A DNA stretch of 64,000 bases, from the NCBI GenBank assembly GCA_049964715.1, contig JBMFXB010000002.1, positions 12,386-76,385 on the forward strand, written 5' to 3'. The notes under the pieces are model-generated. The model saw only the letters and a program-made list of their open reading frames with translations. It was not told where the DNA came from and made no database searches. Numbering within the stretch: position 1 is the stretch's first letter; every line of letters starts with the position of its first letter. Shown in pieces: positions 5,762 to 59,634 of this stretch. Origin of the DNA: Candidatus Dormibacteria bacterium. GTDB taxonomy: Bacteria > Chloroflexota > Dormibacteria > Aeolococcales > Aeolococcaceae. The translations under genes were made by a program, and so were the position numbers.

Positions 5762-7148
5762 GAGACTGCCCCCTACTCACTGTCCTACGCTTCATTATGA
5801 CCACTGTGATCCCAGCTGCAAGTACAACCACCACTACAATTGCTATTCCTAACCACAGTGGAAATCCTGAATTCCTAGTCGTTCCAAGATCAAGAGGGGA
5901 AAGCGTATTCCCTGTATGAAGAACAATGAAACCATTCTCAGGTGTGGTAATTCCTGCAAAGGCAACAGTACCCTGGCTTACTGGAGTTACAGCATTAATC
6001 TCACCATTCGTTTTCTTGCCATTAATGGTTATCTCAACCACAGTCCAGGATGTACCATTAAAATGCTGAATGAATGGAGTGGGTATGAGCGTCTTACCCT
6101 GCCTACCTATAGAAGTAATTCCACTCACCCACACATCGTTGCTACCAACAGCACCCACCGATGTCACTGAGAAGTTTCCTCCAGACACAGTCCTAAAGTT
6201 AGGCAGTGTAGAAAACGCTGTGCCATTCCAGTGATATATTCCCGTCTGCTGACCTAATGGTGTACTTATCTGTACTGCTATCCACAGGTTACTACCTGAA
6301 TTTCCCGATAGAAATGTTGGACTTGCAATTGCTCCGCCATTCTGTAACGGAATTGCATTGTTGGTAAAAGTGGATCCATTCCAAACCTGCATGACAGGTG
6401 ACTTGCGCACTGTGCTGCCAATCAGGAAAACAACGTTGTTGGGAGTAAAAGCCTCAACCGCCTGCAAATATGAGTTGGCCAATGGCTCCTGCAGACTTGT
6501 CCATGTAACTCCATTCCAGTGGAACATGAAGTTCGTAGGAGCTCCCTTTGTTCCACTAAAGCCAGTAGCCCAGACATCATTTGGAGCGTCCTCTGAAACA
6601 CTGTATAGCGACCCTGGTACTGTTTTGGCCACTGTAGGAAGGGTTGCAAGTTGCCATGCACTACCATTCCAGTGATCTGCAAATGCATACGAAGGCACTT
6701 CATCCGAAAACTTGTTGCCTGGCTGTGAGGAACCAACAATCCAGACATCATTTGATGCAAGTGCACTAACAGAATTTACAACAGTGCTTGTACCAGGAAA
6801 TGATGGAGATATATCATGCACACTGCCCCCAGATTCAATCTCTACAAACGGCAATATCTGGCCCCCCGCAGCATTTGGAGCATGACCTACTGCTGAACCA
6901 GCGACGACAATACCGCCACTGCCTGGAATGGATGAAATGCCTGAAATGCTTTCCGTGAATGTATATCCGGAAGGAACACTTGAAGGTCTAAGCAAGGTAT
7001 ATTCCGTCCATCCCGAGCTAGATGCAAGAACCATGCTACCCTGCAAAAACAAAGCTGCAGCGAGAACAAACCCTGCAACTAGGTCAAGGTTTCTCAATCG
7101 AGGGAAATTCATGAATCCTCCTACTCCATTGGACAAAGTACGTTGCAC
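5754..7148 (-). CDS. Surface-anchored beta-propeller-like protein with repeated WNG motifs
   Basis: N-terminal signal peptide (LVAGFVLAAALFLQG). At least five spaced repeats HWNGSAW, HWNGVTW, VWNGSTF, HWNGTAF, HFNGTSW occur, resembling BNR/Ycf48-type propeller blades. C-terminal TM anchor LWLGIAIVVVVVLAAGITVVIM followed by KRR. Overlaps the downstream lipoprotein gene by 8 nt. Confidence 0.55.
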   Translation of the reverse strand: MQRTLSNGVGGFMNFPRLRNLDLVAGFVLAAALFLQGSMVLASSSGWTEYTLLRPSSVPSGYTFTESISGISSIPGSGGIVVAGSAVGHAPNAAGGQILPFVEIESGGSVHDISPSFPGTSTVVNSVSALASNDVWIVGSSQPGNKFSDEVPSYAFADHWNGSAWQLATLPTVAKTVPGSLYSVSEDAPNDVWATGFSGTKGAPTNFMFHWNGVTWTSLQEPLANSYLQAVEAFTPNNVVFLIGSTVRKSPVMQVWNGSTFTNNAIPLQNGGAIASPTFLSGNSGSNLWIAVQISTPLGQQTGIYHWNGTAFSTLPNFRTVSGGNFSVTSVGAVGSNDVWVSGITSIGRQGKTLIPTPFIQHFNGTSWTVVEITINGKKTNGEINAVTPVSQGTVAFAGITTPENGFIVLHTGNTLSPLDLGTTRNSGFPLWLGIAIVVVVVLAAGITVVIMKRRTVSRGQSHA

Positions 7149-11675: not shown

Positions 11676-12542
11676 TCAAGAAGCATCTCCATCATGCTGC
11701 TTTATGTCTGTACTGTTTGGTGGAGCATATCCCTGAATGTACTGGACATTGGACGGCTCGATCACGGCAGTAGATCCTGCATATGAACCCGTCACAGAGA
11801 ACGTGATCGTTCCCAAATCACTTCCCGGAACATCAATTGACCACTGCACTATATCACCACTCGACCCCAGGTAAACATTTGCTGCGAGTTTTGAGCTGTG
11901 TGACATTGCAGTAACAACCACTTGGTCTACGAGCAATGACTCTTCACTATTGCTCTGCTGTAGTACTGATTGCAAATCAGTGGTTACCCTGTATGATTCA
12001 GCAGAACGGCCAGCGATGGTTGTGGGGCCTGTATCTTCAACTTTGACTATTCCATTGTCCACAATCTCTTCCGTGATAGCAGGATTCAGGAGAAGCAAGT
12101 CATCTGCAAATGAGCTGAGAGGCTTTGCAACTGGTGGTGCTGACTGGAGTACCAGTCCTTTCCATACCTGTGAAGATGTTCCACTTCCCACATATCCCAC
12201 ATATGCACTTCCCAACTGTTCCACAAGCGAAAAGGCTTTCGGTTGACTCGATGCAATGCCAGCATTCGTTGCAAAATTGTAGTGTCCAACCACTTCTTGA
12301 GCCATGGTGAATGGGTTTACTGCGGATTGACGATTCCATTTGCCGGTGAATGTATAACTCCCTGTTAGGAGCTTTGCATAGCCCACTGCAATTCGATTTA
12401 CATCCCCCATTTGGGCAGGGGACAGTTGTTGACCTCCAACACTTGACTGTACCCTATGAGTTGAGTTTCCAATTGCTGTTGTGCCACACGAAGTGGTTAT
12501 ACAGATTCCCAGAGCAAGGAGAATTGCAAATGAGCGATTCAC
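11676..12542 (-). CDS. Lipoprotein (lipobox ITTSC)
   Basis: MNRSFAILLALGICITTSC|GT is a signal peptide plus lipobox. No domain assigned. Confidence 0.55.
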   Translation of the reverse strand: MNRSFAILLALGICITTSCGTTAIGNSTHRVQSSVGGQQLSPAQMGDVNRIAVGYAKLLTGSYTFTGKWNRQSAVNPFTMAQEVVGHYNFATNAGIASSQPKAFSLVEQLGSAYVGYVGSGTSSQVWKGLVLQSAPPVAKPLSSFADDLLLLNPAITEEIVDNGIVKVEDTGPTTIAGRSAESYRVTTDLQSVLQQSNSEESLLVDQVVVTAMSHSSKLAANVYLGSSGDIVQWSIDVPGSDLGTITFSVTGSYAGSTAVIEPSNVQYIQGYAPPNSTDIKQHDGDAS

Positions 12543-13288: not shown

Positions 13289-14152
13289 CTAGTGAAACAG
13301 TGCCTGGAAACTTCCAGAATTCATACCCTGGTCAGGGCTGGGTGATGGTGATGTTCCAAACTTCACGTAGTTTGTATTGCTCAGGAGTACATATTCCAGA
13401 ATAGAACTCTGAGTAGAGTTGCGTGAATCCATGAGATACGACAAGAGTTCTGCCTCAGATTCAGGAACGCCTACGATGAGTTCCGTAGCAGCCCCTGCAG
13501 TTTGACCAACTGTGCCAACATTCAGGATCGTCACATTATGCGCCATGATCTCAACATTGCCTTGGCCATTGGCGTCTCCGAGAATATCTATCTGGTCACC
13601 TGGCTGAAGGAAGCCCCCTACACCTTGTGTAGCATTCATGGGTATAGCTATTGCAACGTACCCAGATGGCAGGGAGAATGCCTCTTCCCGGCAGCCTGCC
13701 TGGGTGGCAACGGTCGTGGAACTTGATGAACTCGGAGAACTCGAAGGTGAGATGGAAGTAATGAGCGTGGGCGAAGCCGTTGCCTGGGGCGTGCAGACAA
13801 CTGCGATTCCCGACGTCTTGGTTGGGCTTACAAGACTAGGTGTGATTACCTGATTGGGAACAATGCTGACTATTGCATACTGGCCAACTACTTTCGTCGG
13901 ATCAGTGAACGCACCAGCTGGAACTGCAGTGGTCGGCACCTGAGTTGCAACGACCTCTGACTGTGTTATTGCACTTCCATTGGGGATTTCAGTCGCGGCT
14001 TCAACAACAGTGACTGTCGGAACATTTGCACCACCACCACCGGCCTTCGTTAGCACGATGAGACCCACTGCTCCTGCACCTGCAACAATGAGACCAACGA
14101 CAATTGCGATGAGTTTGTTCGGGCGGCCACCTGGCCTCATATTCATTCCCAT
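13289..14152 (-). CDS. cpaB: Flp pilus assembly protein CpaB/RcpC-like (N-terminal TM + SAF domain)
   Basis: TM segment LIAIVVGLIVAGAGAVGLIVL followed by NGSAITQSEVVATQVPTTAVPAGAF, typical of CpaB. Ser-rich linker. Start among M26/M28/M30 of the ORF (which extends to 14227). Confidence 0.7.
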   Translation of the reverse strand: MGMNMRPGGRPNKLIAIVVGLIVAGAGAVGLIVLTKAGGGGANVPTVTVVEAATEIPNGSAITQSEVVATQVPTTAVPAGAFTDPTKVVGQYAIVSIVPNQVITPSLVSPTKTSGIAVVCTPQATASPTLITSISPSSSPSSSSSTTVATQAGCREEAFSLPSGYVAIAIPMNATQGVGGFLQPGDQIDILGDANGQGNVEIMAHNVTILNVGTVGQTAGAATELIVGVPESEAELLSYLMDSRNSTQSSILEYVLLSNTNYVKFGTSPSPSPDQGMNSGSFQALFH

Positions 14153-14255
14153 ATAGCTGATCCTACATCCTTTGTTTGCAGCATTGGCGGCATGTGTCGC
14201 ATGGGCATTGCATATGCGATTCGACACCTAGTGTATTGTAAATAGCAGTAATTGT

Positions 14256-14735
14256 GTGTTGAACTGTGTTACGGTTCTGTGCCAATTGGTTCTGTACGAC
14301 CAGCAACTCCTCCTCAAGACTACATCCCCGTCACAGTCAGGTGACAGATTTGCAGCAGCAGATCCTCACCAGTCCCAGTCACCATACAGTGAAGTCATCA
14401 AGGCACTGGAGCTTCGAGGGAGGAGCACAACGATGATCGTGAATCAGCATCTCAGCAGCAGGGAAATCCGGGATGCCTTCCCCAGAGGTCTTCCTGATCC
14501 AACAGTACGCGATAGCATTGCCTCAGCCATCCTGCATGACTATCACTTTGGAAGTGCACAGACCTTGGCCATGCCAGAATCCATGCGACCAGTTCTCGAG
14601 AGTGTACACAGTACTGTTGCTCCCCGGGTAAGTACGTACTACTCCAAAGTGGAGTCCGCGCTTGCAGCCCAGCTACCATCTGCAAAACAGACACAGGGTG
14701 CTCGAGTGCGGGCGAACGTCAACCTCATCGAATAG
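14256..14735 (+). CDS. Hypothetical protein
   Basis: First gene of a + strand cassette lying between two - strand Tad gene groups (cpaB ends at 14152; flp starts at 17406). No motif; start uncertain. Confidence 0.35.
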   Translation: MLNCVTVLCQLVLYDQQLLLKTTSPSQSGDRFAAADPHQSQSPYSEVIKALELRGRSTTMIVNQHLSSREIRDAFPRGLPDPTVRDSIASAILHDYHFGSAQTLAMPESMRPVLESVHSTVAPRVSTYYSKVESALAAQLPSAKQTQGARVRANVNLIE

Positions 14736-14774
14736 TGCATCGCCATCTCGAACGTATGTGTCACTTTCGGTAGC

Positions 14775-15665
14775 ATGAAGGATGTGGCAGTACCAACATA
14801 CCCTTCACTGAAATCTCAGGAAGAGCCAATGACTTCATGTATGGATCTTCATCCTCTTGAAAGATGGTACTCAGAACATGGAAGACATCACCTCCCCTGG
14901 CGTCACACACAGGATCCATGGCACATTCTTGTAAGTGAAGTAATGTTGCATCAAACCCAGGTGCATCGAGTTCTTGGCTACTGGGAGCTGTTTATCTCAC
15001 GCTGGCCGACCCCACAGGCATTTGCAGATGCACCACTACATGACCTCCTGCGTTCCTGGAAGGGACTTGGATATCCCCGTCGTGCCCGCAATCTCCAGGC
15101 ATCAGCATCAACCATAGCCCGTACTGGCTGGCCCGAAGATGAAAAGGGACTCCTTGCACTTCCAGGTGTTGGAACGTATACAGCCCGAGCGATGCGCATC
15201 ATTGCCTGGAACGATCCAGCTTGCCCTCTTCCCCGTGATGTCAACATCACCCGCATATTCCAGCGACTCTCTGGTACCACTTCGCTTGTAGAGCCTGTCG
15301 GATGGCAGGGCACCCGGAGAGATCTTGTGTATGCTCTCTTCGATCTTGGTTCACTCATCTGCCGTGCACGGACACCTTTGTGCCAACATTGCCCTGTCCA
15401 TGAATCGTGTGTCGCATGCACTTCAGAAGATAACTTTCAGGACCCTCCAACACATCGGCAAGCACCGTTTCATGGCTCCTTCCGTGAGCTCCGCAGTGCA
15501 GTTCTACAAATTTGCATTGCAGAACCTTCCATCTCGAAGGACACTCTCAAGTACCTGTGTAGTCCACTTCTTGGTAGAGTTCCAGAACAGGATGAGCTGG
15601 ATCGTGCCCTGCACTCACTTGTAACAGATGGGCTCCTGGACATGATGGAAGAAGAGGCCACTTAA
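14775..15665 (+). CDS. HhH-GPD DNA glycosylase, MutY/Nth family, with [4Fe-4S] loop and no NUDIX domain
   Basis: Helix-hairpin-helix LPGVGTYTARAMRIIAWN, catalytic-Asp region PRDVNITRIFQRL, and cluster ligands C-x6-C-x2-C-x5-C (CRARTPLCQHCPVHESC). At 296 aa it is too short for the MutY C-terminal NUDIX-like domain. Confidence 0.7.
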   Translation: MKDVAVPTYPSLKSQEEPMTSCMDLHPLERWYSEHGRHHLPWRHTQDPWHILVSEVMLHQTQVHRVLGYWELFISRWPTPQAFADAPLHDLLRSWKGLGYPRRARNLQASASTIARTGWPEDEKGLLALPGVGTYTARAMRIIAWNDPACPLPRDVNITRIFQRLSGTTSLVEPVGWQGTRRDLVYALFDLGSLICRARTPLCQHCPVHESCVACTSEDNFQDPPTHRQAPFHGSFRELRSAVLQICIAEPSISKDTLKYLCSPLLGRVPEQDELDRALHSLVTDGLLDMMEEEAT

Positions 15666-15667
15666 CA

Positions 15668-16726
15668 ATGAGATCCGAACTCAGTACAACACTCCTACGT
15701 GATGGCCAGGGCATCAGCCTTCAACCGACGCTCACTTTGGATCCAACTCGTATCGACCACCCAGAGCCGCTTGCCAATGCTCATCGCGTCGTTTTTGCTG
15801 GATTTGCCTCTTCGTACAGTATCCTCTTCCTTCTCGAACTCCTTGCAAGTCCCGAATTCACTGTTGCCGGTATCCTCACCAGTCATCGAAGTGGCAACAT
15901 CATTGCCAACAATCGAACCTTGGCTGATATAGCCACCCAATTCAAGATACCGTTCATTGGTGCAACTGACATCAATGCCCCGGAGATAGCTTCAGAAGTG
16001 CATGGATGGAATCCCGATGTTGGTATCATCGCGAGCTTTGACCAGATCTTCCGTTCCCAGTTCCTCTCAATCCCGGTTCATGGGTGGGTCAATGTCCACC
16101 CTTCACTTCTCCCAAAGTATCGCGGGGCTGAGCCTCTTTTCTGGACTCTTGTGAACGGAGAACTCACTGCCGGTATGTCATTTCACCGTGCAGTGGAGAG
16201 ATTCGATGAAGGTGCACTACTTGCTCAGTGCATCATTCCTGTCGAAAAGGATGATACTGCTGGACGGCTTCTAGAGCGGATCATGACAGCAGCACTTCCC
16301 CTCATTCCAGCAGTTCTCTCCCACTGCATACATGGCGGAACAAGCACTCCCCAGCCACAAGGCACGTTCAGTACAGCTCCCCCCATAGGACACTTCCCTC
16401 TTGCTGCCTGTGCGAGTGCGAGTCATGCAAAAAGGATTGCATTTGCAACACTTCCGGACTTTGCTCCATGGATCGAGCTCACAGGAACCCGATTCTTTAT
16501 CCGCTCGATTTCGGATGCACCCCTTCTCAATACCCTTTCGTATACCTATCCTGATGGAACCCAGCTATGGTTTCCTGAACTCACGGAACAATGTAGTTGT
16601 ATCCAACAGCGTCCAGATTGCCCAGCTATTCGTGATACGCTTCCCACGTCACGCTCGATACCTTTTATAGTAGGTAGCAGCGAATACATATCCACACTGC
16701 AGAGCAGTGCAACGAGGAATTCATGA
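15668..16726 (+). CDS. Formyltransferase-family protein (Fmt-like, with N- and C-terminal extensions)
   Basis: HPSLLPKYRGAEPLFWTLVNGELTAGMSFH matches the HxSLLPxxRG catalytic motif of Fmt/PurN formyltransferases. Begins 3 nt after the glycosylase stop, so probably cotranscribed. Confidence 0.65.
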   Translation: MRSELSTTLLRDGQGISLQPTLTLDPTRIDHPEPLANAHRVVFAGFASSYSILFLLELLASPEFTVAGILTSHRSGNIIANNRTLADIATQFKIPFIGATDINAPEIASEVHGWNPDVGIIASFDQIFRSQFLSIPVHGWVNVHPSLLPKYRGAEPLFWTLVNGELTAGMSFHRAVERFDEGALLAQCIIPVEKDDTAGRLLERIMTAALPLIPAVLSHCIHGGTSTPQPQGTFSTAPPIGHFPLAACASASHAKRIAFATLPDFAPWIELTGTRFFIRSISDAPLLNTLSYTYPDGTQLWFPELTEQCSCIQQRPDCPAIRDTLPTSRSIPFIVGSSEYISTLQSSATRNS

Positions 16727-17157
16727 ACGACAGGAAGTCACTCAGCGACCAGACTGATCCTTTGCACACCTATGTGGATGAGGAGAAATTCTTTACACTC
16801 ACTGCTCCTGAACACTCTGGTTCAACAAAAACACTCTGCCTGTTTCTCCTCAGCGAGGAAGTCAATGAGCAGGCACGAGAGGGACATTTTTCTCTCATCT
16901 CTGGCTATACACGTGAAAATGAACCAAAGTGCATAACCAGTGATGCACTGGCTGTCCTCCTCATTGATGGTGGTGTAGAGGGTGCTGAACGTTTGTGCGG
17001 AAGAATTCTGCAGCTTTTTGCTTCCCTTCACCTTGAACACATTCTCACGATCCTTGTGGTGTCCCTTCCTGAAGCACTTACTCCTGAGCATGCAGCCAAG
17101 CTCGTAGCAGAAGGACGAACACGTGAAGCTGGCTCTGTCCATCTCATTGCATCGTAG
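16723..17157 (+). CDS. Hypothetical protein (possible degenerate receiver-like fold)
   Basis: Overlaps the formyltransferase stop by 4 nt. The segment ITSDALAVLLIDGGVEG is reminiscent of receiver domains but lacks clear signature residues. Confidence 0.35.
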   Translation: MNDRKSLSDQTDPLHTYVDEEKFFTLTAPEHSGSTKTLCLFLLSEEVNEQAREGHFSLISGYTRENEPKCITSDALAVLLIDGGVEGAERLCGRILQLFASLHLEHILTILVVSLPEALTPEHAAKLVAEGRTREAGSVHLIAS

Positions 17158-17183
17158 TCCTGCTCTCTGCATATGCAACAAGA

Positions 17184-17213
17184 GCAGCATGACATGCTGT
17201 ACATGTCTGCTGC
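17184..17213. terminator. Imperfect hairpin between convergent genes
   Basis: GCAGCATGACATG-ctgta-CATGTCTGCTGC, about 12 bp stem with one bulge. Lies between the + cassette end (17157) and the flp stop (17242). No strong U-tract. Confidence 0.35.
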
Positions 17214-17241
17214 CCTTGCCGCGTTTCAATGAATACAGTGC

Positions 17242-17406
17242 TTATCCTGTCGCGTATTTCACTCCTTTCTCAATATTGGAATACACATTGTTGACCTGAT
17301 GACCAAGAAGAATCACTGTCACAAGTACTGCCAGTGCAATGAGTACGATTATGAATGCATATTCGACAATACCCTGACCTTTCTCCTCCTGACATCCCAG
17401 TCGCAT
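17242..17406 (-). CDS. flp: Flp/Fap family pilin (prepilin, 54 aa)
   Basis: MRLGCQEEKGQGIVEYAFIIVLIALAVLVTVILLG... carries the Flp motif G|xxxxEY followed by a hydrophobic helix. GGAGGT lies 3 nt upstream of the internal ATG; the ORF extends to 17457. Confidence 0.8.
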   Translation of the reverse strand: MRLGCQEEKGQGIVEYAFIIVLIALAVLVTVILLGHQVNNVYSNIEKGVKYATG

Positions 17407-17547
17407 CCTACCTCCATATAAAAGCAGGACTGGAAGAGATCGTAGCCACGTTGCCACTATAGGCTTCCTCCTTTATATCTGACGTTCTCGCACACCTGAT
17501 AATTCTGTGGGGAATTATAGCACCCTGTCAAATTTACATACTTTGCG

Positions 17548-52746: not shown

Positions 52747-53379
52747 TTACCGGCTGTAATATTCAACGATGAGCTGCTCGTTGATTTCCCGCTCCATCTC
52801 CGGACGTTCCGGAAGCCGGACGACTGTTCCACGGTAGGACTTTGTGTCCACACTCAGCCACTCTGGCACCGAGCGTCCCTGATGGACAACCTGTGCACCA
52901 GTTTCCAGTGCAAGAAGGTTCCGACTCTTTTCACGGACTTCAACGACATCGCCAGGCTTCACCTGTGCTGAGGCGATGTTCACTACACGGCCATTCACAG
53001 CAAAGTGACGATGATTCACAAGTTGTCGTGCCTCATTCCGGGAAGAGGCAAAGCCAAGTCGGTACACAACGTTGTCAAGTCGACGCTCAAGCTCTTGGAG
53101 GAGCACAGTTCCAGTGACTCCCTGACTGCGTTCTGCCCTGTCGATATAGATACGAAACTGACGCTCAAGTACACCGTACAAACGGCGTGCACGCTGCTTG
53201 GCGCGAAGCTGGATACCGTAGTCACTAACCTTTCTACGCGAAGGTGTCGTGTGCTGGCCAGGAGGTGTGCCGTTCCTCTTCTCAAGAACGCAGCTGCTGT
53301 AGCACTTCGTGCCTTTCAGAAAAAGCTTTGTCCCTTCACGCCGACACAACCGACAGACAGGTCCTGTTTCTCTCGCCAT
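52747..53379 (-). CDS. rpsD: 30S ribosomal protein S4
   Basis: N-terminal zinc ribbon CRLCRREGTKLFLKGTKC and S4 domain (RLDNVVYRLGFASSR). Confidence 0.95.
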   Translation of the reverse strand: MARETGPVCRLCRREGTKLFLKGTKCYSSCVLEKRNGTPPGQHTTPSRRKVSDYGIQLRAKQRARRLYGVLERQFRIYIDRAERSQGVTGTVLLQELERRLDNVVYRLGFASSRNEARQLVNHRHFAVNGRVVNIASAQVKPGDVVEVREKSRNLLALETGAQVVHQGRSVPEWLSVDTKSYRGTVVRLPERPEMEREINEQLIVEYYSR

Positions 53380-58241: not shown

Positions 58242-59045
58242 TCAACCAACTGCACATTTGCGCTCTTGGAGAATGACTCGCTCAGAAGGGCGCACTGTGA
58301 GTACATGGGGACCATCTTCCGTTATTGCAACTGTATGCTCTGCATAGGCGGACCAGCTTCCATCCTGCGTGACAACTGTCCAGTTGTCCTCCAACGTGCG
58401 AACAGCATCACGGCCCTTGTTAACCATGGGCTCAATCGCAATGACATAGCCTGGCTTTAGTTCATTGCCTGTACCTGGCTTTCCATAATTGGGCACCTGT
58501 GGTGGCTCATGCATATCCCGCCCGATACCATGGCCAACATAATGTTTCACCACCGCGTAGCCATGAGACTCGACATATGTCTGAACCGTATGTCCAATAT
58601 CGCCAATGTGAGCTCCTGGTCGTGCTACTTCTATCGCCCGATACAGCGCTTCCTGTGTCACATCAATGAGCTTTTGCATCCCTGGCTCAACATTGCCACA
58701 CGGCACAGTGAGTCCACTATCCGCCCACCATCCATCGAGAATGAGACCACAATCGAGCGAAACAATATCTCCATCCTGCACCACCCGCTCTCCAGGAATG
58801 CCATGTACTACTTCATTGTTAACAGAGATGCATATGGACTTTGGGAAGCCATCATAACCAATGAACCCTGGAATACAACCATGATCCCTGATGAAGGTCT
58901 CTGCTTCACGGTCGAGAGTATTGAGTGTTACCCCTGGCGCAACATGTGTGGCAACATGCTCAAGGCATGCACCAAGAATCTCTCCTGAACGAGCCATTCG
59001 TGCGATTTCATCAGGCTTCTTCAGTCGAAAGCTCTCGCCCCGCAT
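58242..59045 (-). CDS. map: Methionine aminopeptidase, type I
   Basis: Pita-bread fold metal ligands (DIVSLDCG, HGIGRDMHE, EPM). Start trimmed to MRGESFRLKKPDEIARM; the ORF extends to 59081. Confidence 0.9.
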   Translation of the reverse strand: MRGESFRLKKPDEIARMARSGEILGACLEHVATHVAPGVTLNTLDREAETFIRDHGCIPGFIGYDGFPKSICISVNNEVVHGIPGERVVQDGDIVSLDCGLILDGWWADSGLTVPCGNVEPGMQKLIDVTQEALYRAIEVARPGAHIGDIGHTVQTYVESHGYAVVKHYVGHGIGRDMHEPPQVPNYGKPGTGNELKPGYVIAIEPMVNKGRDAVRTLEDNWTVVTQDGSWSAYAEHTVAITEDGPHVLTVRPSERVILQERKCAVG

Positions 59046-59634
59046 GATGCTCCTCCTCAAGATTTCCCTTCTCCAACACATGAATGAGTCTCGTCGTCAC
59101 AGTATCAACATCCGGCGTGCCATCGACATCGACCATCGGTGCCCCCTGTGCACGGTAATACTCGATGGTGGGAATTGTCTTTTCCTCATACTCCTTCAGA
59201 CGCTGTTTAAGCACTTCAACAGAATCATCCGATCGACCTTCAACTGTCGCACGGTGTTGAATACGCTCCAAAATGACATCCGTCGGAACAGAAAGATGAA
59301 CAATGAGATCTATCGTCATTCCGAGTTCCCTGAGAAGATCAGCCAGGCCCTCTGCCTGTGGCTTTGTGCGTGGATACCCATCAAGGAGGACACCGTTGAC
59401 ACCTGTCGTTTCCAGAAGGACACGACGAATCATGGCGAGCATGTACGAATCTGGAACGAGTTCTCCACGATTCATGAGATCCTGGACTTTCTTCCCAAGT
59501 TCAGTCTCTTCAGCAATCTCCTTCCGAAGCAATTCACCTGTGCTGACATGTCTGAGATGAAAATGGGCTGCAAGTTGTGCTGACTGTGTCCCCTTACCAC
59601 TTCCTGGAGGACCACAGATGATGTAGTGCTTCAT
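59011..59634 (-). CDS. adk: Adenylate kinase
   Basis: P-loop GPPGSGKGTQ. LID region with Ser/Thr rather than a Cys4 zinc site. Confidence 0.9.
   Translation of the reverse strand: MKHYIICGPPGSGKGTQSAQLAAHFHLRHVSTGELLRKEIAEETELGKKVQDLMNRGELVPDSYMLAMIRRVLLETTGVNGVLLDGYPRTKPQAEGLADLLRELGMTIDLIVHLSVPTDVILERIQHRATVEGRSDDSVEVLKQRLKEYEEKTIPTIEYYRAQGAPMVDVDGTPDVDTVTTRLIHVLEKGNLEEEHHAGRELSTEEA

What the first reader, a model, noticed from the sequence alone, without database searches (positions are those of the whole stretch)
14256..17157. Cassette coupling a NUDIX-less MutY/Nth-family glycosylase to an Fmt-like formyltransferase, wedged between the two Tad parts
A 296-aa HhH-GPD glycosylase has an intact catalytic Asp and a [4Fe-4S] loop but lacks the MutY C-terminal domain. 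Three nucleotides later comes a 352-aa formyltransferase with the HxSLLPxxRG catalytic motif and non-canonical N- and C-terminal extensions. The formyltransferase is in turn overlapped by a small ORF with a receiver-like segment. A base-excision glycosylase translationally coupled to a formyl-group transferase is not a standard housekeeping pairing. Possible roles are a nucleic-acid modification or repair module, or a regulatory insertion. The cassette splits an otherwise syntenic pilus locus and is flanked by a convergent hairpin at 17184-17213.
Basis: partly seen in the sequence, partly recalled or inferred. Interest (0 to 1): 0.5.

Follow-up and report, generated by a model that had tools for sequence, protein, structure and literature searches.

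The report
Conserved MutY–formyltransferase operon of Dormibacterota
A DNA-repair glycosylase and an unusual formyl-transfer enzyme sit back to back here, and the same pair recurs in most genomes of the uncultured soil phylum Dormibacterota, so it is an inherited operon rather than a one-off insertion; why the two genes are coupled is still unknown.

Summary
The ORFs are real. Four co-oriented genes at 14433-17157, all under purifying selection, lie between minus-strand Tad genes of a Candidatus Dormibacteria chromosome.

- **Glycosylase (G).** It keeps the catalytic Glu and Asp and all four [4Fe-4S] cysteines. Its missing NUDIX domain is replaced by a ~70-aa winged-helix domain like the "X domain" of Eggerthella MutYX (PDB 8UUC, 2025). 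This includes the 8-oxoG-reading Arg, invariant in 57/57 relatives.
- **Formyltransferase (F).** It has an intact Asn/His/Asp triad and an Fmt/ArnA/FDH-type two-domain fold. It forms a Dormibacterota-only clade, about 27% identical to both Fmt and ArnA-like enzymes, and lacks Fmt's basic tRNA-recognition loop.
- **144-aa ORF (U).** It is not receiver-like. It belongs to a tiny family with weak GGDEF_2 similarity.
- **Conservation.** G sits directly upstream of F in 57 of 80 species-level Dormibacterota loci, usually 1 nt apart and outside any Tad context. Fifteen loci instead have F-FdhD-MobA.
- **Tad context.** It is confined to the window's low-GC clade. In three other genomes TadC is followed by unrelated genes, so no split of an otherwise contiguous pilus locus is shown.

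Whether F is the phylum's only Fmt could not be tested. Verdict: a lineage-typical conserved operon containing new variants of known enzymes. Interest is moderate.

The parts
14433..14735 (+). Small conserved ORF (o100, ~100 aa) of unknown function. It is the conserved C-terminal part of the 159-aa ORF at 14256-14735 and is found only in the window's clade.
   Evidence: 78% identical to L001 from Met60 onward, while the upstream part is unconserved. GGGAGGAG lies 7 nt before the ATG at 14433. dN/dS is 0.14. No Pfam or NCBIfam hit. In L007 it is separated from G by a 1-kb insertion.
14775..15665 (+). G: MutY-family adenine DNA glycosylase with a [4Fe-4S] motif and a MutYX-type winged-helix X domain in place of the NUDIX domain. 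The true start is probably 14829 or 14841.
15668..16726 (+). F: formyltransferase of a Dormibacterota-specific clade, inferred to use N10-formyl-THF. It has an Fmt/ArnA/FDH-type two-domain fold, a ~40-aa N-terminal extension and a Cys-rich C-terminal tail.
   Evidence: PF00551 1.6e-25; TIGR00460 99 bits against a cutoff of 201.5. N142, H144 and D180 are invariant in 86/86. AF2 model: pLDDT 84, with Foldseek matches to Fmt, ArnA and FDH at about 1e-19 to 1e-20. The clade is monophyletic in 98/100 bootstraps.
16723..17157 (+). U: 144-aa protein of a small Dormibacterota-only family with weak GGDEF_2 similarity. It overlaps the end of F by 4 nt.
   Evidence: 76% identical to L001, dN/dS 0.11. Homologous (27-31% identity) to the 137-aa gene downstream of F in 60 loci. 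5 of 32 members hit PF17853, best E 6e-4. Not receiver-like. Only 9 representatives in 1.84 billion proteins, one of them a spurious tandem-repeat hit.
17184..17213 (.). Intergenic hairpin between the convergent genes U (+) and flp (-). Probably a bidirectional terminator or transcript-end structure.
   Evidence: MFE -31.4 kcal/mol for 17155-17245, z = -2.98. No T-tract.
13289..14227 (-). Left flank: CpaB/RcpC-like Flp pilus assembly gene, the first gene of 'Tad part 1'.
   Evidence: TIGR03177, PF16976, SAF.
17242..17457 (-). Right flank: Flp-type pilin, the last gene of the CpaB-TadB-TadC-Flp block.
   Evidence: PF04964 Flp_Fap, E 2.6e-4 and below the gathering score. 87-89% identical in clade relatives.

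Best explanation
The region is the window lineage's copy of a vertically inherited, co-transcribed operon typical of the phylum Dormibacterota. It is not a foreign or accessory cassette.

**Gene order.** The ancestral order is G-F-(single-domain response regulator)-U, next to a divergent Iso_dh gene. In the low-GC clade that contains the window, the response regulator is absent, a small ORF (o100) precedes G, and the unit lies between flp and cpaB.

**G.** G is the phylum's regular MutY-type adenine glycosylase. The HhH-GPD core with Glu55 and Asp155 and a [4Fe-4S] cluster would excise adenine. A C-terminal winged-helix X domain (Arg237, plus Gln229 in this protein) would read 8-oxoG in place of the NUDIX/FSH domain, as in Eggerthella MutYX.

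**F.** F is a catalytically competent formyltransferase (Asn142/His144/Asp180, SLLP motif) that should use N10-formyl-tetrahydrofolate. It has an Fmt-like C-terminal beta-barrel. It forms its own clade and lacks Fmt's basic tRNA-recognition loop. I therefore infer, at about 60:40, that its acceptor is not recognised in the classical Fmt way and that it is not simply the housekeeping Fmt.

**U.** U is a small GGDEF_2-like protein of unknown role.

**Shown versus inferred.** Shown: gene identities, motifs, folds, conservation of the gene order, and purifying selection. Inferred: the enzymatic activities, co-transcription and translational coupling, and the acceptor of F. A functional link between G and F is neither shown nor required.
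For: **Organism and conservation**
- Cluster members of F and G are named Candidatus Dormibacteria or Dormibacteraeota.
- The genome scan returned 80 species-level loci, nearly all titled Dormibacterota-type MAGs, with one F per isolate.
- Among 87 loci the gene orders were: G-F-RR-U 36, G-F-U 17, o100-G-F-U 4, G-F 4, G-F-RR 1, F-FdhD(-MobA) 17.
- In 52 loci with complete G and F, the gap is 5 nt or less, or an overlap, in 32, and 6-30 nt in 14.
- Iso_dh lies upstream in 49 loci and a hybrid histidine kinase in 34.
- The Tad context is found only in the window, L007, L001/L010 and L011.

**G**
- The catalytic and FeS residues are conserved.
- MutYX 'TRQSTFEGSRRQKR' aligns with 'HRQAPFHGSFRELR'.
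- Of the PDB hits, 8uuc aligns over the longest stretch.

**F**
- The triad is invariant in 86/86, and the fold is Fmt/ArnA/FDH-like.
- It scores below every curated cutoff.
- Its loop 1 is 16 aa with 0-2 basic residues. The other formyltransferases in the alignment (Fmt-type and ArnA-like) have a median of 19 aa and 4 basic residues, and the Fmt-type ones carry T-Q-P-D-R-P-x-G-R-G.
- The mean distance F-Fmt is 2.08, against Fmt-Fmt 1.33 and Fmt-ArnA-like 1.67.

**Selection and mobility**
- dN/dS is 0.11-0.14 for all four genes.
- There are no flanking repeats, GC anomaly or Rfam element.
Against: - I could not scan any whole Dormibacterota genome. F may be the only Fmt homologue there, and TIGR00460 is its best-scoring curated model.
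- NCBI and JGI name some family members methionyl-tRNA formyltransferase.
- A phylum-wide single-copy Fmt-like gene is what a divergent orthologue would look like.
- The Gln of the MutYX Gln/Arg pair is present in only 26 of 57 G relatives.
- The X-domain sequence match on its own is weak, E 0.5.
- F is not next to G in 15 of 80 loci (F-FdhD-MobA), so coupling is not obligatory.
- The window's own F has lost the three His of the C-x-C-H-H...C-x-H tail, which 77/86 relatives keep.
Confidence: 0.55

Rival explanations
1. Purely housekeeping pair. F is the phylum's one and only methionyl-tRNA formyltransferase, strongly diverged with a remodelled tRNA-recognition loop. G is its only MutY. The two are merely neighbours in a compact housekeeping operon, with no shared function.
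For: - F is single-copy per isolate and spread across the phylum.
- TIGR00460 is the top curated model, at 99-126 bits.
- The Fmt-type C-terminal barrel is retained in the model.
- Some sources name it Fmt.
- F has two alternative contexts, G-F and F-FdhD-MobA, as is common for housekeeping genes.
- No second formyltransferase was found in the window or in about 1 Mb of related loci.
Against: - F scores at half the curated cutoff.
- It lacks the T-Q-P-D-R-P-x-G-R-G loop that the Fmt-type hits in the alignment carry.
- It is farther from Fmt than the ArnA-like enzymes are.
- Its dN is 2-4 times that of neighbouring core genes.
- The absence of a second copy was tested on under 1% of each genome.
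Confidence: 0.3
2. Functional repair or modification module. G and F, perhaps with U, act together on nucleic acid. For example, F might formylate a base, a repair intermediate or a partner protein in connection with adenine excision.
For: - G and F are tightly spaced or overlapping in 46 of 52 complete pairs, across about 50% sequence divergence.
- The pair moved as a unit into the Tad region.
- Even in L076 a MutY-like gene sits divergently next to F.
- F keeps an OB-like C-terminal domain, which binds nucleic acid in Fmt.
- In one clade a WYL/PafBC-like regulator lies between G and F.
Against: - I know of no precedent for formyl transfer in base-excision repair (own knowledge), and the two targeted paper searches found nothing relevant.
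- 15 of 80 loci have F without G.
- Neither protein has any extra domain or fusion linking the two.
- No physical interaction was tested.
Confidence: 0.12
3. Mobile or regulatory insertion. A cassette inserted into the Tad pilus locus that interrupts or regulates pilus expression.
For: - The genes are on the opposite strand between flp and cpaB, with a hairpin at the convergent end.
- The near-identical relative L007 carries a resolvase-type HTH_7 fragment plus one extra ORF just upstream of G.
Against: - No flanking direct or inverted repeats, no integrase and no GC shift.
- The same arrangement holds in three species of the clade at 60-76% protein identity.
- In other Dormibacterota the TadBC block ends without a second Tad part, so nothing was split.
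- The genes are orthologues of a phylum-wide operon.
Confidence: 0.03

Closest known systems
MutYX, the clusterless adenine glycosylase of Eggerthella sp. (PDB 8UUC; Trasvina-Arenas et al., NAR 2025, PMC12631127)
   Same: - An HhH-GPD adenine-glycosylase core followed by a ~67-70-aa domain of three helices plus short strands (winged helix), in place of the NUDIX domain.
- The Arg209 equivalent (Arg237) is invariant, and the Gln201 equivalent (Gln229) is present here.
- 8uuc is the PDB hit that aligns over the longest stretch of G.
   Different: - G keeps all four [4Fe-4S] cysteines, whereas MutYX is defined as clusterless.
- G keeps the catalytic Asp, whereas actinobacterial MutYX uses Glu.
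- The paper states that PSI-BLAST with the X domain found only clusterless MutYs, so a cluster-bearing X-domain form is not described there.
Canonical MutY (E. coli; G. stearothermophilus; TIGR01084)
   Different: No NUDIX/MutT-like C-terminal domain and no FSH loop. The score of 170 bits is below the 286.5 cutoff.
Methionyl-tRNA formyltransferase Fmt (E. coli 1FMT/2FMT; TIGR00460)
   Same: SLLP motif, Asn/His/Asp triad and a two-domain fold with a C-terminal barrel. It is the best-scoring curated HMM.
   Different: - 99 bits against a cutoff of 201.5.
- PF02911 is not detected.
- Loop 1 is short and non-basic.
- F has an extra ~40-aa N-terminus and a Cys-rich tail.
- It is not next to def or rsmB.
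ArnA N-terminal formyltransferase domain and ArnA-like stand-alone formyltransferases (PRK06988)
   Same: It is the best PDB sequence hit (78 bits). The alignment across loop 1 has no gaps. The fold is the same.
   Different: There are no sugar-nucleotide genes (aminotransferase, dehydrogenase) in any of the neighbourhoods. The score is 93 bits against a cutoff of 316.
Hydrolase domain of 10-formyl-THF dehydrogenase (ALDH1L1 N-terminal domain)
   Same: The same two-subdomain architecture; Foldseek E about 5e-19, TM 0.66.
   Different: It is eukaryotic and part of a multidomain enzyme. Nothing here points to hydrolase rather than transferase chemistry.
GGDEF_2 domain (PF17853) of PucR/CdaR-type regulators, for the 144-aa ORF
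   Same: 5 of 32 family members give weak hits, and the sequence pattern resembles a degenerate GGDEF core.
   Different: It is stand-alone, about 137-144 aa, below the gathering score, and has no HTH domain.

Membership tests
Canonical MutY (TIGR01084) | HhH-GPD core with the catalytic Glu and Asp | tested here: met
   Glu55 and Asp155 align to E. coli Glu37 and Asp138 (E. coli numbering from memory). Each is conserved in 56/57 relatives.
Canonical MutY (TIGR01084) | [4Fe-4S] cluster loop, C-x6-C-x2-C-x5-C | tested here: met
   C196, C203, C206 and C212 are each conserved in 57/57. Cluster binding itself was not testable.
Canonical MutY (TIGR01084) | C-terminal NUDIX/MutT-like 8-oxoG recognition domain with the FSH loop | tested here: not met
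   No NUDIX hit. Canonical MutY structures align over only about 205 residues of the model.
Canonical MutY (TIGR01084) | Score above the curated equivalog cutoff | tested here: not met
   170 bits against 286.5.
MutYX (PMC12631127) | X domain: a ~67-aa unit of three helices plus short strands after the interdomain connector | tested here: met
MutYX (PMC12631127) | Arg209/Gln201 8-oxoG recognition pair | tested here: met
   Q229-x7-R237 aligns to Q-x7-R of 8uuc. Arg is conserved in 57/57 and Gln in only 26/57 of the family. Matching the numbering to the paper is my inference from the spacing.
MutYX (PMC12631127) | Absence of the [4Fe-4S] cluster | tested here: not met
   All four Cys ligands are present and invariant.
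MutYX / MutY | OG:A-specific adenine excision activity | not testable with these tools
   Needs an enzyme assay.
Fmt (TIGR00460) | Formyl-THF site: SLLP motif and the Asn/His/Asp triad | tested here: met
   N142, H144 and D180 are each conserved in 86/86.
Fmt (TIGR00460) | Basic loop-1 insertion (T-Q-P-D-R-P-x-G-R-G, Arg42) that reads the initiator tRNA acceptor stem | tested here: not met
   F has T-S-x-G-A-x-P-A-I-x-G-x-N, 16 aa with 0-2 basic residues. The other formyltransferases in the alignment (Fmt-type and ArnA-like) have a median of 19 aa and 4 basic residues. The role of the loop is from established knowledge of the E. coli Fmt-tRNA complex.
Fmt (TIGR00460) | C-terminal Formyl_trans_C beta-barrel (PF02911) | tested here: inconclusive
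   Pfam does not detect it. The AF2 model aligns over about 290-300 residues to Fmt, ArnA and FDH, including their C-domains.
Fmt (TIGR00460) | Score above the curated cutoff | tested here: not met
   99 bits in the window and 107-126 bits in relatives, against 201.5.
Fmt (TIGR00460) | Sole Fmt homologue in the genome, with def and a C1:A72 initiator tRNA present | not testable with these tools
   Only 64 kb plus about 1 Mb of loci were visible. No second formyltransferase or def was found there and there is no tRNA in the window.
ArnA-type / sugar N-formyltransferases | Genomic association with amino-sugar nucleotide biosynthesis genes | tested here: not met
   None in the window or in the gene tables of L001-L009.
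Response-regulator receiver (for the 144-aa ORF) | CheY-like receiver profile | tested here: not met
   hhalign of the U alignment against the alignment of true neighbouring receivers gives probability 0.4%. No Pfam hit.
GGDEF_2 (PF17853) (for the 144-aa ORF) | Profile match above the gathering score | tested here: inconclusive
   5 of 32 members match, best E 6.4e-4. The window's own protein has no hit.
Mobile cassette / genomic islet | Flanking repeats, a recombinase, or a composition shift | tested here: not met
   Only short chance repeats. GC is 0.48-0.56, like the surroundings. A resolvase HTH fragment occurs only in relative L007.

The most novel reading that the evidence does not exclude
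G, F and U form a functional unit in which a MutY-type glycosylase is mechanistically coupled to a folate-dependent formyl transfer. F's OB-like C-domain and Cys/His knuckle could dock on DNA or on G, and F could formylate a nucleic-acid or protein amine during or after adenine excision. That would be a base-excision-linked formylation step with no known precedent. The evidence consists of phylum-wide tight gene coupling and movement of the pair as a unit. Nothing excludes this reading, and nothing biochemical supports it.
Probability: 0.12. Interest if true: 0.8.

Novelty: new variant of a known kind. Interest (0 to 1): 0.42.

Why it matters
**For MutY biology.** G shows that the MutYX X domain, with its conserved 8-oxoG-reading Arg, also occurs in enzymes that still carry the [4Fe-4S] ligands. 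The 2025 structure paper reported the X-domain sequence only in clusterless MutYs. A cluster-bearing form across a whole phylum would be a candidate evolutionary intermediate. It suggests that the domain swap may have preceded cluster loss.

**For translation and one-carbon biology.** Either outcome for F would be informative:
- Dormibacterota formylate initiator tRNA with an enzyme that lacks the canonical tRNA-recognition loop.
- Or they carry a core, phylum-specific formyltransferase with an unknown acceptor.

**Practical value.** The conserved G-F-(RR)-U order gives a concrete, testable gene set in a phylum with no cultured model.

Tried and rejected
**Is there a canonical fmt elsewhere in Dormibacterota?** This could not be settled.
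- Exact look-ups of the window's G and F found nothing.
- Cluster names for 20 canonical-type hits carried no organism.
- Matching contig lengths as a fingerprint gave no coincidence.
- tblastn with Fmt and Def-Fmt queries found no second copy in the window or the 89 loci then held. That covers under 1% of each genome.

**Receiver-like U.** Rejected by hhalign.

**U homologues outside the phylum or in fusions.**
- Only 9 representatives were found.
- One, a 1487-aa tandem-repeat protein, is spurious.
- The PDB profile search gave nothing significant.

**Other checks that came back negative.**
- Anti-phage defence role: PADLOC returned only a generic HhH-GPD 'nicking endonuclease' hit for G.
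- Riboswitch or leader RNA: no Rfam match at E of 1 or below.
- Mobile element: no flanking repeats.
- Literature: nothing for Dormibacterota plus formyltransferase, and nothing relevant for MutY plus formyltransferase plus operon. A further search on the phylogenetic distribution of Fmt and Def returned four papers, none followed up.

**HypX-like CO synthesis.** F's fold also matches the HypX N-domain. F has no crotonase-like domain, so I dropped this idea.

**Technical failures.**


Full report
**What is in the sequence**

The region 14256-17157 holds four co-oriented plus-strand ORFs.
- A 159-aa ORF lies at 14256-14735.
- A 296-aa HhH-GPD protein (G) lies at 14775-15665.
- A 352-aa Formyl_trans_N protein (F) lies at 15668-16726.
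- A 144-aa ORF (U) lies at 16723-17157.

G ends TAA-CA-ATG, so a 2-nt spacer precedes F. F and U overlap by ATGA.

The neighbours on both sides are minus-strand Tad genes. CpaB lies on the left. Flp pilin, TadC, TadB and a second CpaB lie on the right.

The hairpin between U and flp folds at -31.4 kcal/mol, z = -2.98.

GC content is unremarkable. No flanking repeats or Rfam elements were found.

The window is core chromosome. It carries rpsB, topA, the nuo operon, rpoA, rpsD, truA, secY and map.

**Refinement of the gene models**

I compared the window with a 72%-identical relative (L001) and a 99%-identical relative (L007).
- All four ORFs are conserved as proteins. Identity to L001 is 59% for G, 72% for F and 76% for U.
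- Only the last 100 codons of the 159-aa ORF are conserved. They start at an ATG (14433) behind GGGAGGAG.
- dN/dS against L001 is 0.11-0.14 for all four genes. That is purifying selection, but weaker than for TadB, TadC and ResB (0.03-0.05).
- The first 22 codons of G have dN/dS of 0.85 against L007 and low model confidence. G therefore probably starts at Met19 (14829) or Met23 (14841).

**Organism**

Cluster members of F and G carry NCBI names from Candidatus Dormibacteria, Dormibacteraeota or Dormiibacterota. All related genome loci are MAGs of that phylum, a few with obviously discordant labels.

The window and its close relatives have 50-55% GC. The rest of the phylum's loci have a median of about 70%.

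**The glycosylase**

G aligns to the E. coli MutY catalytic domain. It has the catalytic Glu (SEVMLHQTQV), the catalytic Asp (PRDVNITR) and C-x6-C-x2-C-x5-C. In 57 Dormibacterota relatives these residues are conserved in 56-57 of 57.

It scores 170 bits on TIGR01084, below the 286.5 cutoff, and has no NUDIX domain. So 'NUDIX-less' is correct.

The remaining ~70 residues are not a truncation remnant.
- The 275-residue chain 8uuc_A is Eggerthella MutYX, described in 2025 as a clusterless MutY with a new 'X' C-terminal domain (PMC12631127). It aligns to G residues 39-259.
- The C-terminal fragment alone aligns 'HRQAPFHGSFRELRSAVLQICIAEP' to 'TRQSTFEGSRRQKRAELVRLVLAEP'.
- Under the only numbering consistent with both named residues, Gln229 and Arg237 correspond to Gln201 and Arg209. 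The paper shows that these two read 8-oxoG, with Arg209 dominant.
- Arg237 is invariant in 57/57 relatives. Gln229 is present in 26/57.
- An AlphaFold model (pLDDT 87.6) has three C-terminal helices.

G is therefore an X-domain MutY that still has the iron-sulfur ligands. The paper reports that PSI-BLAST with the X domain found only clusterless MutYs. The Dormibacterota form is thus an undescribed variant. It is also the normal form in this phylum: the 120 best homologues are almost all about 286 aa with only PF00730.

**The formyltransferase**

F carries NVHPSLLPKYRG and the Asn142/His144/Asp180 triad, invariant in 86/86 family members.

It falls below every curated cutoff. It scores 99 bits on fmt (cutoff 201.5), 93 bits on the ArnA-like PRK06988 (cutoff 316) and 62 bits on PurN (cutoff 150). 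More central family members score 107-126 bits on fmt.

Homologues with at least 72% query coverage form a small set (P0001-P0008) that carries only PF00551.

The AlphaFold model (pLDDT 84, pTM 0.83, tail 314-352 disordered) has the two-domain Fmt/ArnA/FDH fold. Foldseek scores are equal, about 1e-19 to 1e-20, for B. anthracis Fmt, the ArnA formyltransferase domain, the FDH hydrolase domain and WbkC. The fold does not name the acceptor.

Four features separate F from Fmt.
- The loop after strand 2 is T-S-x-G-A-x-P-A-I-x-G-x-N in most of the family, and T-S-H-R-S-G-N-I-I-A-N-N in the window. In Fmt this position holds T-Q-P-D-R-P-x-G-R-G, which contacts the tRNA acceptor stem.
- That loop is 16 residues with 0-2 basic ones in F. 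The other formyltransferases in the alignment (Fmt-type and ArnA-like) have a median of 19 residues and 4 basic ones.
- An invariant A-S-F-(D/N)-Q-I motif replaces the usual hydrophobic strand.
- F has a conserved ~40-aa N-terminal extension and a C-x-C-H-H-x3-5-C-x-H tail. The tail is present in 77/86 members. The window's protein keeps the three Cys but has lost the His.

In a neighbour-joining analysis the family is monophyletic in 98/100 bootstraps. It lies farther from Fmt (mean distance 2.08) than ArnA-like enzymes do (1.67), and farther than Fmts lie from one another (1.33). It is about 27% identical to both groups.

**The small ORF**

U is homologous (27-31% identity) to a 134-144-aa gene found downstream of F in 60 loci.
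- It is not a receiver. A profile-profile comparison with the genuine response regulators that sit next to it in other genomes gives probability 0.4%.
- Five of 32 members weakly match GGDEF_2 (PF17853, best E 6.4e-4).
- The family has only 9 representatives among 1.84 billion proteins. One of these is a spurious hit to a tandem-repeat protein.

**Neighbourhood analysis**

A scan of one genome per species returned 80 loci that encode F relatives, one per isolate.

A tblastn survey of these plus earlier loci (87 in all) gave the following gene orders:

| Gene order | Loci |
|---|---|
| G-F-RR-U | 36 |
| G-F-U | 17 |
| o100-G-F-U (window clade) | 4 |
| G-F | 4 |
| G-F-RR | 1 |
| F-FdhD(-MobA), no G on the same strand | 17 |
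| Truncated or other | 8 |

- Among the 80 species loci, 57 have G upstream of F.
- In 52 loci with complete ORFs, the G-F gap is an overlap or at most 5 nt in 32, 6-30 nt in 14 and 31-100 nt in 2.
- In the remaining 4, the gap is about 1.5 kb. That gap holds a WYL/HTH regulator and a gene I read as glyoxalase-like from its sequence.
- RR is a standard single-domain receiver.
- Upstream of G lies a divergent Iso_dh gene in 49 loci and a hybrid histidine kinase in 34.
- In one F-FdhD locus (L076), a truncated MutY-like gene lies divergently next to F.

The G-F pairing is therefore old, tight and phylum-wide. It is not obligatory, and it normally has nothing to do with pili.

**The Tad context**

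Only the window, L007, L001/L010 and L011 place the unit between flp and cpaB.

In three more distant Dormibacterota the block ResB-HisPhos-CpaB-TadB-TadC is conserved. It is followed by unrelated genes, with no second Tad part.

So there is no evidence for an 'otherwise syntenic pilus locus' that was split. In the window's clade, the operon and the TadE-rich block lie next to the TadBC block.

L007 has an extra ~1 kb between o100 and G. It carries a resolvase-type HTH_7 fragment and a 99-aa ORF. This shows local rearrangement activity.

**Interpretation**

The best-supported reading is an inherited Dormibacterota operon. It encodes the phylum's regular X-domain, cluster-bearing MutY and a lineage-specific active formyltransferase, plus a small GGDEF_2-like protein.

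- The activities of G follow from MutY and MutYX precedent.
- That F uses N10-formyl-THF follows from the conserved site.
- The acceptor of F is unknown.
- I lean (about 60:40) against F being a conventional Fmt. The reasons are the missing tRNA loop, the low HMM scores and its outlier position in the tree.
- I could not test whether any canonical fmt or def exists elsewhere in these genomes. That is the decisive open point.
- A true mechanistic coupling of glycosylase and formyltransferase remains possible (about 0.12). It is supported only by gene order.

**Verdict**

It is wrong on the receiver-like ORF, the split pilus locus and the idea of an accessory insertion.

The components are new variants of known kinds. 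Interest is moderate.

Noticed in passing
L007:7538-8404 (relative with 99% identical F): About 1 kb inserted between o100 and G. It carries a 74-aa resolvase-type HTH_7 fragment and a 99-aa ORF with no family. The insertion is absent from the window. G is 9.5% diverged at the amino-acid level between the two strains, while F and U differ by about 1%.
   Followed up: partly
window:55881-57655 (+), between map (58242-59081) and rpsD (52747-53379): Two plus-strand pilus-type genes sit inside the secY-map...rpsD-rpoA ribosomal gene region, on the opposite strand. One has Tad plus DUF7305 and the other is TadE-like.
   Followed up: no
L021:4411-5823 (also L041, L068, L089): In one Dormibacterota clade two genes are inserted between G and F: an HTH_11-WYL-WCX regulator, whose weaker Pfam matches include HTH_PafC, and a 148-aa ORF that I read as glyoxalase-like from its sequence only.
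   Followed up: partly
L076:5029-5700 (-) and 5932-6891 (+): In an F-FdhD-MobA genome, a MutY-like gene that ends about 25 aa after the FeS loop (no X domain) lies divergently next to F, beside the same Iso_dh gene.
   Followed up: no
window:16592-16627 (F residues 309-320): The family-wide C-x-C-H-H-x3-5-C-x-H tail, a possible metal knuckle present in 77/86 members, reads C-S-C-I-Q-Q-R-P-D-C-P-A in the window. The three Cys are kept and all three His are lost.
   Followed up: partly
L004:11070-14099; 17 loci in all: The alternative conserved context of F is immediately upstream of FdhD/NarQ-family and MobA-like (NTP_transf_3) genes. In L004, DUF6457 and MoeA follow as well, making a molybdenum-cofactor gene cluster. 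The meaning for F is unknown.
   Followed up: no
window:7296-9272 (-): A 658-aa ORF extremely rich in Tyr, Thr, Gln, Trp and Asn, with no Pfam family, at the distal end of the TadE-rich block. Its neighbours in that block diverge fast between close relatives (the 288-aa ORF at 11676-12542 is only 29% identical).
   Followed up: no
window as a whole compared with loci L012-L089: The window's clade has 50-55% GC, against a median of about 70% in other Dormibacterota loci. It is a distinct low-GC lineage within the phylum. It lacks the response regulator and has the operon in the Tad region.
   Followed up: partly
P0266 (hit of the U search): A 1487-aa protein made of about 19 near-identical tandem repeats scored 3e-34 against the 144-aa ORF. 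I treated it as a repeat artefact, not a homologue.
   Followed up: partly
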